Shown: in pieces, positions 1,010 through 40,656 of the stretch
How positions within the stretch are numbered: the first letter of the stretch is position 1
Layout of the letters: each line of letters begins with the position of its first letter
Origin: Mustelus asterias
Lineage: Eukaryota
DNA: 64,000 nucleotides
Direction of reading: 5' to 3'
Assembly: GCF_964213995.1 (NCBI RefSeq)
Contig: NW_027590162.1
Coordinates: 186,001 to 250,000, forward strand
Position numbers and translations under genes: made by a program
The notes under the pieces: generated by a model
What the model saw: only the letters and a program-made list of their open reading frames with translations
The model's database searches: none
What the model was told of the DNA's origin: nothing

Positions 1010-1050
1010 CAGCTTTTTCACAGAGATTGTGGGTGGCTCTTAAAAGAGCC
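1010..1050 (-). terminator. Histone 3' stem-loop and histone downstream element (HDE) of H2B
   Basis: Minus strand GGCTCT-TTTA-AGAGCC (1050-1035), then ACCCA, then GAAAAAGCTG (1019-1010). Confidence 0.95.
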
Positions 1051-1087
1051 GTTGTGTTTGGGATGTTTTTTCAGTCCATGGGGAGTT

Positions 1088-1474: not shown

Positions 1475-1526
1475 CTTCAATTTCACACAGAAATAAAGCA
1501 AACCCCTTCCGAGCGCTGATTAAATA

Positions 1527-2104
1527 GACTGTTCTCTTCCTGTTGGGGAGCACTTCAGCGGTCACGGGCATTCGGCCTCTGATATTCGGGTAAGCGTTCT
1601 CCAAGGCGGCCTTCGCGACACACGACAGCGCAGAGTCGCTGAGCAGAAACTGATAGCCAGGTTCCGCACACACAAGGACGGCCTCAACCGGGATATTGGG
1701 TTTATGTCACACTATTTCACATAAATATTTCTGCTTTTTTCCTCCTGAGTCTTTATCATGCGATCCTAGAATCAGAATTTATGTCACACTATTTGTAACT
1801 CCCACAGTTGCGTGGACCTGCAGAGTTTCACTGGCTGTCTTGTCTGGAGACAATACACATCTTTTTAGCCTGTCTTGATGCTCTCTCCACTCCCATTGTT
1901 TTGTTTCTTAAAGACTGGATTAGTTGTAAGTATTCGCATTCCAACCATTATTCATGTAAATTGAGTCTGTGTCTTATAAGTTCTGTTTGTGAACAGAATT
2001 CCCACTCACCTGAAGAAGGGGCTCAGAGCCTCGAAAGCTTGTGTGGCTTTTGCTACCAAATAAACCTGTTGGACTTTAACCTGGTGTTGTTAAACTTCTT
2101 ACTG
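1527..2104 (+). mobile_element. 5'-truncated Penelope-like element (end of GIY-YIG ORF plus 3' terminal repeat)
   Basis: Near-identical to about 40119-40623 of the long Penelope copy; flanked by duplicated TAAATAGAC (1521-1529, 2105-2113). Confidence 0.93.
2002..2046 (+). ncRNA. Minimal hammerhead ribozyme motif in Penelope terminus
   Basis: CAC-CTGAAGA-A-GGGGCT-cag-AGCCTC-GAAA-GC-TT-GTG: CUGANGA/GAAA core, paired stem II, palindromic AAGCTT at stem III. Confidence 0.75.
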
Positions 2105-2260
2105 TAAATAGACAGTCCCACAGATCTATGCTAATGAGGAATTGGGAAAGCAATGATTGTGATTGGACATTTTGAAAGTTATTAAACTCACTTATCAGGG
2201 GTTCATTTGAGTGAATATGTCAATAGACCAATCAGATTGAAGCCTTTCCGCCAATCACAA
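2105..2260 (-). promoter_or_regulatory. Displaced upstream half of the H2B promoter
   Basis: Minus strand CCTCATTAGCATAG (2139-2126, H2B octamer box with one mismatch); CCAAT on minus at 2162-2166 and on plus near 2228 and 2251; duplicated TATA sequence at 2105-2113. Confidence 0.75.
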
Positions 2261-2425: not shown

Positions 2426-4810
2426 TGTGTGTGAGTGTGGGATTTACTCACTCGATGATGCAGTGTGTGAGTGTAGGATTTACTCACTCTCTGATACAGT
2501 GTGAGTGTGGGATTTACTCACTCTCTGATACAGTGTGAGAGTGTGGGATTTACTCACTCTCTGATTCGGTGTAAGAGTATGGGATTTACTCACTCTCTGA
2601 TACAGTGTGTGTGTGTGGGATTTACTCACTCTCTGATACAGTGTGTGAGTGTGGGATTTACTCACTCTCTGATACAGTGTGTGAGTGTGGGATTTACTCA
2701 CTCTCTGATACAGTGTGTGTGGGATTTACTCAGTCTCTGATACAGTGTCAGTGTGGGATTTACTCACTCTCTGATACAGTGTGTGAGCGTGGGATTTACT
2801 CACTCTCTGATACCGTGTGTGAGTGTGGGATTTACTCACTCTGATACAGTGTGTGTGTGTGTGGGATTTACTCACTCTCTGATACAGTGTGTGTGTGTGG
2901 GATTTACTCACTCTCTGATACAGTGTGTGTGTGTGGGATTTACTCACTCTGATACAGTGTGTGTGTGTGTGGCATTTACTCACTCTCTGATACAGTGTGT
3001 GTGTGTGGGATTTACTCACTCTCTGATACAGTGTGTGTGTGGGATTTACTCACTCTCTGATACAGTGTGTGTGTGTGGGATTTACTCACTCTCTGATACA
3101 GTGTGTGAGTGTGGGATTTACTCACTCTGATACAGTGCGTGTGTGTGTGGGATTTACACACTCTCTGATACAGTGTGTGAGTGTGGGATTTACTCACTCT
3201 CTGATACAGTGTGTGTGTGTGGGATTTACTCACTCTCTCATACAGTGTGAGAGTGTGGGATTTACTCACTCTCTGATACAGTGTGTGAGTGTGGGATTTA
3301 CTCACTCTCTGATACGGTGTGAGAGTGTGGGATTTACTCACTCTCTGATACAGTGTGTGTGTGTGGGATTTACTCACTCTCTGATACAGTGTGTGAGCGT
3401 GGGATTTACTCACTCTCTGATACCGTGTGTGAGTGTGGGATTTACTCACTCTGATACAGTGTGAGAGTATGGGATTTACTCACTCTGATACAGTGTGTGT
3501 GTGTGTGGGATTTACTCACTCTCTGATACAGTGTGTGTGTGTGTGTGTGGGATTTACTCACTCTCTGATACAGTGTGTGTGTGTGGGATTTACTCACTCT
3601 CTGATACAGTGTGTGAGTGTGGGATTTACTCACTCTCTGATACAGTGTGTGAGTGTGGGATTTACTCACTCTCTGATACAGTGTGTGTGTGTGGGATTTA
3701 CTCACTCTCTGATACAGTGTGTGAGTGTGGGATTTACTCACTGATACAGTGTGTGTGTGTGTGGGATTTACTCACTCTCTGATACAGTGTGTGAGTGTGG
3801 GATTTACTCACTCTCTGATACAGTGTGTGAGTGTGGGATTTACTCACTCTCTGATACAGTGTGTGTGTGTGGGATTTACTCACTCTCTGATACAGTGTGA
3901 GTGTGTGATTTACTCACTCTCTGATACAGTGTGTGAGTGTGGGATTTACTCACTCTCTGATACAGTGTGTGAGTGTGGGATTTACTCACTCTCTGATACA
4001 GTGTGTGTGTGTGGGATTTACTCACTCTCTAATACAGTGTGTGTGGGATTTACTCACTCTCTGATACAGTGTGAGAGTGTGGGATTTACTCACTCTCTGA
4101 TACAGTGTGTGTGGGATTTACTCACTCTCTGATACAGTGTGTGTGTGTGTGGGATTTACTCACTCTCTGTTACAGTGTGTGAGTGTGGGATTTACTCACT
4201 CTCTGATACAGTGTGTGTGGGATTTACTCACTCTCTGATACAGTGTGAGAGTGTGGGATTTACTCACTCTCTGATACAGTGTGTGTGGGATTTACTCACT
4301 CTCTGATACAGTGTGTGAGTGTGGGATTTACTCACTCTCTGATACAGTGTGAGTGTGGGATTTACTCACTCTCTGATACAGTGTGAAAGTGTGGGATTTA
4401 CTCACTCTCTGATACAGTGTGTGTGGGATTTACTCACTCTCTGATACAGTGTGTGAGTGTGGGATTTACTCACTCTCTGATACAGTGTGAGTGTGGGATT
4501 TACTCACTCTCTGATACAGTGTGAGTGTGGGATTTACTCACTCTCTGATACAGTGTGTGTGTGTGGGATTTAGTCACTCTCTGACAGTGTGTGAGTGTGG
4601 GATTTACTCACTCTCTGATGCAGTGTGTTTGTGTGGGATTTACTCACTCTCTGATACAGTGTGTGTGTGGCATTTACTCACTCTGATACAGCATGTGTGT
4701 GTGGGATCTAGTCACTCTCTGACACAATGTGAGAGTGTGAGATTTACTCACTCTGATTCAGTGTGTTTGTGTGGGATTTACTCACTCTCTGATGGTGTCT
4801 GTGCGATTTA
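2426..4810. repeat. Minisatellite, ~36-bp unit GTGGGATTTACTCACTCTCTGATACAGTGTGTGAGT
   Basis: About 65 tandem copies, unit length varying through GT dinucleotide number; produces the spurious CVSVGFTHSLIQ ORFs. Confidence 0.98.
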
Positions 4811-38762: not shown

Positions 38763-40656
38763 CGAAGATACACAAGGCAAACACACCCGGCCGTCCCATC
38801 GTATCGGGCAATGGGGCCCTGTGCGAGAACCTCTCCGGCTATGTCGAGGGCATCCTGAAACCTATTGTACAAAGAACCCCCAGCTTTTGTCGCGACACGA
38901 CGGACTTCCTACAGAAACTCGGCACACATGGAGCAGTTGAACCAGGAGCGCTCCTCGTCACAATGGATGTCTCGGCACTCTACACCAGCATCCCCCATGA
39001 CGATGGCATTGCTGCAACGGCCTCAGTGCTCAGCGCCAACAACTGCCAGTTTCCAGATGCAATTTTACATCTCATCCGCTTCATCCTGGATCACAATATC
39101 TTCACCTTCAACAACCAGTTCTTCATCCAGACACACGGAACAGCCATGGGGACCAAATTCGCACCTCAATATGCCAACATCTTCATGCACAGGTTCGAAC
39201 AAGACTTCTTCACCGCACGGGACCCTCAACCGATGCTATACACTAGATACATCGATGACATTTTCTTCCTTTGGACTCATGGTGAACAATCACTGAAACA
39301 ACTCAGTTCCATCCCACCATCAGGCTCACCATAGACTACTCTCCGGAATCGGTTGCATTCTTGGACACACGCATCTCCATTAAGGACGGTCACCTCAGCA
39401 CCTCACTGTACCGCAAGCCCACGGATAACCTCACGATGCTCCACTTCTCCAGCTTCCACCCTAAACACGTTAAAGAAGCCATCCCCTACGGACAAGCCCT
39501 CCGTATACACAGGATCTGCTCGGATGAGGAGGATCGCAACAGACACCTCCAGACGCTGAAAGATGCCCTCATAAGAACAGGATATGGCGCTCGACTCATT
39601 GATCAACAGTTCTAACGCGCCACAGCGAAAAACCGCACCGACCTCCTCAGAAGACAAACACGGGACACAGTGGACAGAGTACCCTTCATTGTCCAGTACT
39701 TCCCCGGAGCGGAGAAGCTACGGCATCTCCTCCGGAGCCTTCAACATGTCATTGATGAAGACGAACATCTCGCCAAGGCCATCCCCACACCCCCATTTCT
39801 TGCCTTCAAACAACCGCACAACCTCAAACAGACCATTGTCCGCAGCAAACTACCCAGCCTTCAGGAGAACAGTGAGCATGACACCACACAACCCTGCCAC
39901 AGCAACCTCTGCAAGACGTGCCGGATCATCGACACAGATGCCATCATCTCACGTGAGAACACCATCCACCAGGTACACGGTACATACTCTTGCAATTCGG
40001 CCAACGTTGTCTACCTGATACGCTGCAAGAAAGGATGTCCCGAGGCATGGTACATTGGGGAAACTATGCAGACGCTGCGACAACGGATGAATGAACACCG
40101 CTCGACAATCACCAGGCAAGACTGTTCTCTTCCTGTTGGGGAGCACTTCAGCGGTCACGGGCATTCGGCCTCTGATATTCGGGTAAGCGTTCTCCAAGGC
40201 GGCCTTCGCGACACACGACAGCGCAGAGTCGCTGAGCAGAAACTGATAGCCAAGTTCCGCACACACGAGGACGGCCTCAACCGGGATATTGGGTTCATGT
40301 CACACTATTTGTAACCCCCACAGTTGCCTAGACCTGCAGAGTTTCACTGGCTGTCTTGTCTGGAGACAATACACATCTTTTTAGCCTGTCTTGATGCTCT
40401 CTCCACTCACATTGTTTTGTTTCTTAAAGACTTGATTAGTTGTAAGTATTCGCATTCCAACCATTATACATGTAAATTGAGTTTGTGTCTTTATAAGCTG
40501 TGTTTGTGAACAGAATTCCCACTCACCTGAGGAAGGGGCTTAGAGCTCCGAAAGCTTGTGTGGCTTTTGCTACCAAATAAACCTGCTGGACTTTAACCTG
40601 GTGTTGTTAAACTTCTTACTGTATTTACCCCAGTCCAACGCCGGCATCTCCACATC
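38763..40656 (+). mobile_element. Penelope-like retroelement (RT + GIY-YIG endonuclease + 3' terminal repeat), 5'-truncated and disrupted
   Basis: PKIHK..GRPIVS, DVSALYTSI, GTAMG, RYIDDIF; VVYLIRC...YIGET...RMNEH; frameshift near 39305 and stop near 39613; 12-bp duplication TTGATTCACTCC at 38751 and 40657. Confidence 0.96.
40519..40563 (+). ncRNA. Minimal hammerhead ribozyme motif
   Basis: CAC-CTGAGGA-A-GGGGCT-tag-AGCTCC-GAAA-GC-TT-GTG. Confidence 0.75.

What the first reader, a model, noticed from the sequence alone, without database searches (positions are those of the whole stretch)
1515..2260. Penelope element inserted in the H2B TATA box, duplicating it and displacing the octamer/CCAAT elements by ~580 bp
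Seen: TAAATAGAC (minus strand GTCTATTTA) flanks the insertion at 1521-1529 and 2105-2113. Removing the insert restores CCAAT - CTCATTAGCAT - CTATTTAA - ATG spacing. Known: H2B S-phase activation depends on the octamer lying just upstream of TATA. Inference: the intact gene is probably silenced or weakened. The displaced promoter, still with a partial TATA, could instead transcribe antisense Penelope RNA running into H2B and ending at a histone stem-loop.
Basis: partly seen in the sequence, partly recalled or inferred. Interest (0 to 1): 0.7.

Follow-up and report, generated by a model that had tools for sequence, protein, structure and literature searches.

The report
Retrotransposon hits histone TATA box twice
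A very young scrap of a Penelope-type jumping gene sits in the TATA box of one of dozens of histone H2B gene copies and likely weakens that spare copy; the same nucleotide was hit a second, separate time in other copies, likely because it spells the element's preferred mirror-symmetric landing code.

Summary
Observation confirmed. A 575-bp, 5'-truncated, tail-less Penelope-like copy (Neptune/Nematis type) lies antisense in the H2B TATA box between 9-bp repeats. It pushes the octamer-like and CCAAT elements 584 bp upstream. At least 43 paralogs keep the contiguous promoter. The insert is 99.8% identical to unlinked copies, so it is very young. New here: a different subfamily inserted independently at the same nucleotide (three duplicated copies), and a third copy hit H2B codon 6. 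The family cuts at a symmetric site, CTG-N2^N12^N2-CAG (15 of 35 unbiased sites against 0.15% background). The H2B TATA box matches it and ranks 1st to 8th of 2,400 local positions. The scan noted this target motif before on other DNA of this genome; the histone hits are new. This gene copy is likely weakened and dispensable: its closest partner carries a nonsense codon, and 8 of 42 copies are broken. The antisense-RNA idea is untested (no RNA data) and unlikely to be functional. The distal TATA is damaged, and in the older event the displaced CCAAT has mutated. Verdict: real, mostly ordinary gene decay with a clear targeting explanation.

The parts
1010..1055 (-). Histone 3' stem-loop of H2B
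   Evidence: Rfam Histone3, 39.4 bits
1088..1474 (-). H2B ORF, 128 aa, open; differs from the majority protein at P11A, P24L, V114M
1516..1532 (+). Left half of the target site: CTG-AT, then the 12-nt stagger TAAATAGAC(T/A)GT. The first 9 nt are the exact repeat (1521-1529) and hold the complete gene-proximal TATA box (minus strand TATTTAA, 1526-1520). AGAC(T)GT is microhomology with the element's 5' truncation point
1530..1724 (+). 3' end of the Penelope-like ORF (C-terminal part of the GIY-YIG endonuclease), 5'-truncated
   Evidence: Pfam GIY-YIG on the longer copy at 39616-40311; this fragment alone has no Pfam hit
1701..1794 (+). 17-bp direct repeat around a 60-bp piece. It is an inherited mark of the young subfamily, not a nested insertion at this locus
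   Evidence: identical in unlinked L029, L042, L043
1725..2104 (+). Element 3' UTR / pseudo-LTR, ending tail-less at CTTACTG
2010..2036 (+). Minimal hammerhead-like core (CUGAAGA, 16-nt hairpin spacer, GAAA); activity untested, no Rfam hit
   Evidence: descriptor quoted in PMC8557442
2004..2012 (-). Consensus 5' splice-site sequence CAG|GTGAGT on the H2B strand, the antisense of the hammerhead core; use untested
2105..2121 (+). Right half of the target: duplicated TAAATAGAC, then AGT-CC-CAC. The displaced TATA copy reads TATTTAC on the minus strand
2128..2138 (-). Displaced octamer-like element CTCATTAGCAT
   Evidence: 34 of 34 empty paralogs
2162..2166 (-). Displaced proximal CCAAT box (further CCAAT at 2228 and 2251 on the plus strand)

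Best explanation
A very young, 5'-truncated Neptune-type Penelope-like retrotransposon inserted into the TATA box of one H2B copy, likely because that box lies inside the family's symmetric target site, and it likely weakens a gene copy that was already dispensable. Shown: the anatomy, the empty paralogs, the youth of the insert, the family-wide motif CTG-N2^N12^N2-CAG, the match of this site to it, and a second independent insertion at the same base. Inferred: a paired GIY-YIG endonuclease nicks both strands 12 nt apart. Reverse transcription starts at the tail-less internal site and stops after 575 nt. The cDNA end anneals to the other overhang through a 7-nt microhomology with one mismatch, leaving 9 exact repeated bases. 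Inferred effect: the gene keeps its TATA box and start but loses the adjacent octamer/CCAAT activators, and so drifts toward a pseudogene.
For: Insert 99.8% identical over 575 bp to unlinked L029 and L042; subfamily tag in 9,663 places; family 3' end in 46,284 places. Target motif: 15 of 35 unbiased tail-less sites match CTG-N16-CA in register (background 0.15%) and 20 of 35 match TG-N16-CA (0.55%). The spacer scan peaks at 16 (27 of 35, against 2-7 for other spacers of 10-20). Duplication length peaks at 12-13. The H2B TATA site ranks 1, 2 or 8 of 2,400 local positions under three matrices trained on sites from another contig. The second event at the same base (3 copies on C85) has other subfamily letters and another 5' end. 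The codon-6 H2B insertion and an H4 codon-7 insertion also sit in TG-N16-CA. Dispensability: the colinear partner copy (99.3-99.7% identical over 29 kb) is empty but carries K31stop. 8 of 42 distinct H2B sequences are broken, and 10 of 42 encode the majority protein with an intact promoter.
Against: Expression was not measured. The motif raises the expected number of hits at this site only to 0.006-0.06 over 41 copies, so a second hit is still a 1-6% event, and an extra factor such as open chromatin may act. An H4 promoter site that scores higher (9.84 against 8.91) was not hit in 30 loci. 14 of 49 unbiased tail-less junctions gave no duplication and were left out of the motif. The ORF, stem-loop and proximal TATA are intact, and the three C85 copies kept open ORFs through two duplications, which residual expression would also explain.
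Confidence: 0.75

Rival explanations
1. Histone promoters are targeted beyond sequence: open, highly active germline chromatin draws the element, and the motif only sets the exact base.
For: Leaving out this insertion, 2 further events in 47 H2B copies against 0.31-0.41 expected (P 0.04-0.065), and 3 events over four histone genes against 0.9-1.2 expected. An earlier scan note reports about threefold density near promoters (unchecked).
Against: Across the four genes P is 0.06-0.12. No promoter hit in 30 H1, 30 H4 or 30 H3 loci; their two events are in coding sequence. Relaxed selection on spare copies would give the same excess.
Confidence: 0.3
2. The displaced promoter works and makes a long RNA: unspliced, an antisense Penelope-H2B chimera ending at the stem-loop; or spliced from 2010 to 1539, a 5'-UTR intron that would restore H2B translation.
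For: Octamer-like element and CCAAT boxes are intact and keep their spacing to TATTTA. There is no AATAAA on that strand in the insert. A consensus donor lies at 2010/2009 and an acceptor-like CTCCCCAACAG at 1550-1540. That splice would remove all 8 upstream ATGs.
Against: The distal TATA reads TATTTAC; TATTTAAT is invariant in 34 of 34 empty copies. Unspliced RNA has 8 upstream ATGs. The donor is the antisense of the hammerhead core found in the whole family, not an adaptation. In the older event the displaced CCAAT became CGAAT (one mutation, 3 of 3 copies). No RNA evidence either way.
Confidence: 0.1
3. One old insertion at this site was spread or remodelled by gene conversion or internal deletion, so there was no second event.
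For: Same nucleotide, same orientation, same tail-less end.
Against: The window insert is 99.8% identical to unlinked young copies but 94.8% to the C85 insert, which shares letters with other subfamilies. The 5' junctions differ. The 99.5% identical partner locus is empty.
Confidence: 0.03
4. The gene is expressed about normally from the proximal TATA with cluster-level activation.
For: Complete TATA, start region, ORF and stem-loop.
Against: The octamer-like element and CCAAT are invariant in empty copies; in mammals the octamer is called essential for H2B activation (PMC5706932, passages).
Confidence: 0.12

Closest known systems
Neptune/Nematis-type endonuclease-bearing Penelope-like elements (PMC8557442, passages read)
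   Same: RT followed by GIY-YIG, a CX2-5CxxC motif ahead of GIY-YIG, two cysteines between GIY and YIG, hammerhead core in the pseudo-LTR, optional 30-40 bp tail, inverted insertions, variable duplication.
   Different: The passages give microsatellites such as (TA)n as preferred targets; this family uses a gapped palindrome CTG-N16-CAG with a 12-nt stagger.
PAc, Poseidon of Anolis carolinensis (PMC11167929, parts 1-2 of 4 read; supplement not read)
   Same: Two start points of reverse transcription giving tailed and tail-less ends; both strands cut and extended; predicted dimer.
   Different: PAc prefers AT-rich DNA and ATT; no bipartite motif is given in the text read. The shark-type family has the extra zinc-finger-like linker.
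Drosophila LTR element 297 in the TATA box of a histone H3 gene (Ikenaga and Saigo 1982; recalled, not held)
   Same: A retroelement lands in a histone TATA box because the box matches its target; 297 has an ATAT target motif (PMC3276498, passages).
   Different: Integrase with a 4-bp duplication, not target-primed reverse transcription; here two independent hits at one base are seen in one assembly.
Vertebrate replication-dependent H2B promoter (PMC5706932, passages)
   Same: Octamer-type element just upstream of a TATA box; intronless ORF; stem-loop 3' end.
   Different: Element reads ATTAGCAT, TATA reads TATTTAA, and H2B and H2A here lie head to tail; Oct-1 binding is untested.

Membership tests
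Endonuclease-bearing Penelope-like element | RT followed by a C-terminal GIY-YIG domain | tested here: met
   RVT_1 E 3e-8 and GIY-YIG E 1e-4, both above cutoff, on the 95-98% identical copy at window 38.8-40.6 kb
Endonuclease-bearing Penelope-like element | Two cysteines between GIY and YIG (CCHH motif) | tested here: met
   VVYLIRCKKGCPEAWYIG in the L003 translation
Endonuclease-bearing Penelope-like element | Optional 30-40 bp tail | tested here: met
   86 tailed, 52 tail-less and 7 other of 145 junctions; this copy is tail-less
Endonuclease-bearing Penelope-like element | Hammerhead motif in the pseudo-LTR | tested here: inconclusive
   CUGANGA-16-GAAA with a 6-bp hairpin is present, but there is no Rfam hit and the fold z-score is 0.1; cleavage untested
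Neptune/Nematis clade | CX2-5CxxC motif between RT and endonuclease | tested here: met
   CHSNLCKTC; feature as given in PMC8557442
Neptune/Nematis clade | Placement in an RT tree | not tested
   No reference set was fetched
Site-specific retrotransposon of a multicopy gene (R2-like) | Copies confined to the host gene | tested here: not met
   46,284 copies, with the 100 listed places spread over the first 5.7 Mb of C1; 4 lie in the H2B TATA box
Replication-dependent H2B gene | Intronless ORF with 3' stem-loop | tested here: met
Replication-dependent H2B gene | Octamer ATTTGCAT next to TATA | tested here: not met
   Variant ATTAGCAT in 34 of 34 empty copies, canonical form in 0 of 34; 584 bp displaced in this copy
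Replication-dependent H2B gene | S-phase expression | not testable with these tools
   No run on record as RNA for this organism

The most novel reading that the evidence does not exclude
The H2B TATA box is a standing trap for this retrotransposon, and the trapped copy is turned into RNA: the displaced S-phase promoter fires through it and either splices 470 nt out (2010 to 1539), creating an intron-containing replication-type H2B gene in one step, or makes an S-phase antisense Penelope RNA with a histone stem-loop end that feeds silencing of the family.
Probability: 0.07. Interest if true: 0.7.

Novelty: new variant of a known kind. Interest (0 to 1): 0.35.

Why it matters
It shows how a short, protein-read target code makes a dispersed retrotransposon hit the same base of a conserved promoter more than once. 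Shared insertions in multicopy genes are therefore unsafe markers of common descent. It also gives a concrete route for histone gene loss. The 12-nt symmetric cut is a direct, cheap test of the predicted dimer mechanism of Penelope-like elements. For the host the effect is probably small, since many intact H2B copies remain.

Tried and rejected
Nested insertion inside the element (17-bp repeat, 60-bp piece): rejected, inherited from the young subfamily. Histone-specific element: rejected. TAAATA as the target signal: weak; only 36 family ends in the genome are followed by it. Further hits at this TATA with the proximal copy intact: none among 47 matches; three C85 copies are missed by that pattern. 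Public runs: contigs only; they show the empty site in 3 of 4 runs, but no listed contig bridges a filled junction, so genotype and expression are open. The lay covered 1430-2330 only, so copy-specific coding variants were not examined. Depth at the promoter (about 650-770 against about 16-37 at single joints in run X1) hints that the assembly holds both haplotypes of these clusters; the tool warns depth is no copy number, so I do not count it. The H2A control failed because the loci did not hold the full span. Hammerhead fold not above shuffles. Literature: searches listed no paper whose title or abstract start describes a gapped palindromic Penelope target or a Penelope copy in a histone promoter (one search listed 20 of 53 hits); one search found nothing; three older papers were not held. 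Supplements were not read; Fig. S1B of PMC11167929 may bear on target preference.

Full report
Setting. The window is part of a histone cluster contig (C130) in a 3.68-Gb genome that I take to be a shark from its repeats (inference). H2B lies on the minus strand at 1088-1474 with a histone stem-loop at 1010-1055. An intact H2A follows head to tail.

Observation. TAAATAGAC flanks a 575-bp insert at 1521-1529 and 2105-2113. The insert is the end of a GIY-YIG ORF, a 3' UTR and a hammerhead-like core, antisense to H2B. A longer relative in the window carries RT and GIY-YIG, and the relative in L003 shows a CX4CX2C linker. That linker marks the Neptune/Nematis type in PMC8557442 (passages). I first called it Poseidon; earlier scan notes prompted this check. 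The empty promoter is real: 39 exact matches plus 4 variants. The octamer-like ATTAGCAT, TATTTAAT and the proximal CCAAT are each present in 34 of 34 aligned empty copies. The 584-base skip is seen in 3 of 4 public runs.

Age. The insert differs by 1 base in 575 from unlinked copies L029 and L042 and shares their 77-bp duplication. C130 and C103 are colinear at 99.3% over 11.5 kb and 99.7% over 17.3 kb around the site, and keep a similar offset over at least 135 kb. The C103 partner is empty. It is either the other haplotype or a recent segmental duplicate; I could not tell which.

Second hit. A junction search found 4 filled sites: this one and three on C85. The C85 insert is about 150 bp, carries letters of other subfamilies and has another 5' end. 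Its three copies lie in 97-99.8% identical duplicated blocks, so they are one older event. A third, 1.1-kb copy interrupts H2B codon 6 in L003. With 46,284 family ends in 3.68 Gb, uniform insertion would give 0.0001-0.0002 tail-less hits at this base over 41 copies, so a cause is needed.

Cause. I collected 145 junctions from loci on contig C1: 86 tailed, 52 tail-less, 7 other. Three tail-less rows were tail variants and were dropped. A duplication of 7 or more bases was found for 35 of the remaining 49, and for 24 of 30 sites selected for TAAATA; lengths peak at 12-13. Rebuilt sites read CTG-NN^N12^NN-CAG: 11 of 35 match fully (background 0.044%), 15 of 35 match CTG-N16-CA (0.15%) and 20 of 35 TG-N16-CA (0.55%). 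In the TAAATA-selected set the figures are lower but still enriched (5 and 9 of 24). A spacer of 16 fits 27 of 35 sites; other spacers fit 2-7. Simple tailed copies show the same (4 of 8). The H2B site reads CTG AT ^ TAAATAGACAGT ^ CC CAC and ranks 1, 2 or 8 of 2,400 positions around the gene; the codon-6 site ranks 4-10. The 9-bp repeat fits a 12-nt cut, because the last 7 nt of the overhang match the element's 5' truncation point with one mismatch (inference). A symmetric site fits the predicted dimer and two-strand priming reported for PAc (PMC11167929, parts 1-2 of 4 read). I derived the motif before consulting the scan; 7 of the 8 notes listed or their follow-ups concern other aspects or places of this family, and several report the same motif (unchecked AI notes).

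Limits of the cause. The motif lifts the expectation to 0.006-0.06, so the second hit is still a 1-6% event. Controls: H1 one coding-region event in 30 loci, H4 one coding-region event from a sister subfamily in 30, H3 none in 30; a higher-scoring H4 promoter site is unhit. Excluding this insertion, the excess over four genes is about threefold (P 0.06-0.12). That is compatible with open chromatin, relaxed selection or chance.

Effect on the gene. The proximal TATA and start region are complete; the activators are 584 bp away. In mammals the octamer is described as essential for S-phase H2B activation (PMC5706932, passages); that spacing matters is my own knowledge. The copy already shared P11A and P24L with its partner, which has K31stop, and adds V114M. 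8 of 42 distinct H2B sequences are broken by stops, indels, insertion or loss of the ATG; 10 of 42 encode the majority protein (identical copies merged, one duplicate row dropped). Loss of this copy is therefore likely tolerated.

Antisense reading. The displaced TATA reads TATTTAC. An RNA from it would carry 8 upstream ATGs and meet no AATAAA. A consensus donor at 2010/2009 and a weak acceptor at 1540 could remove all 8; this is sequence-feasible only. In the older event the displaced CCAAT has mutated (3 of 3 copies, one change) while 38 of 38 empty copies keep it, a weak sign that displaced promoters are not maintained. No RNA data were available.

Verdict. A real, young insertion that likely disables a spare histone gene, an ordinary kind of event with a recalled precedent (Drosophila 297 in an H3 TATA box; paper not seen). 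The worthwhile part is the repeat hit at one base and its explanation by a gapped palindromic target, which my searches did not find in print but which this scan has noted before. Interest 0.35.

Noticed in passing
window 38765-40656: 1.9-kb tailed copy of the same family with a 12-bp duplication (TTGATTCACTCC), broken RT and GIY-YIG frames.
   Followed up: partly
loci L025-L194 (contig C1): 55 of 63 tailed junctions with a duplication belong to inverted two-armed insertions, often with one tailed and one tail-less arm, as twin priming would give.
   Followed up: partly
L277, L279, L284 (H4 codon 7): Tail-less antisense insertion of a sister subfamily in H4, at a TG-N16-CAG site, in three copies.
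   Followed up: partly
L254, L255 (H1, 287 nt after the ATG): Tailed 1.1-kb insertion in the H1 coding region.
   Followed up: partly
L003 2910 onward: The codon-6 insertion is not followed by the rest of H2B; its 5' end joins unrelated sequence (deletion or further insertion).
   Followed up: no
window 2427-4793: Minisatellite of about 36 bp just upstream of the H2B promoter, also present upstream of paralogs on C103.
   Followed up: no
window 1975-1980: TATAAG about 30 nt before the hammerhead core on the plus strand; if it is the element's promoter it would fire across the displaced H2B promoter.
   Followed up: no
L233 1558-1604: A short piece matching the H2B TATA and 5' UTR sits alone on chromosome-scale contig C9.
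   Followed up: no
G000 C130 against C103: Long colinear blocks at two constant offsets (about 104 kb and 941 kb), suggesting uncollapsed haplotypes or large duplications in the histone clusters.
   Followed up: partly
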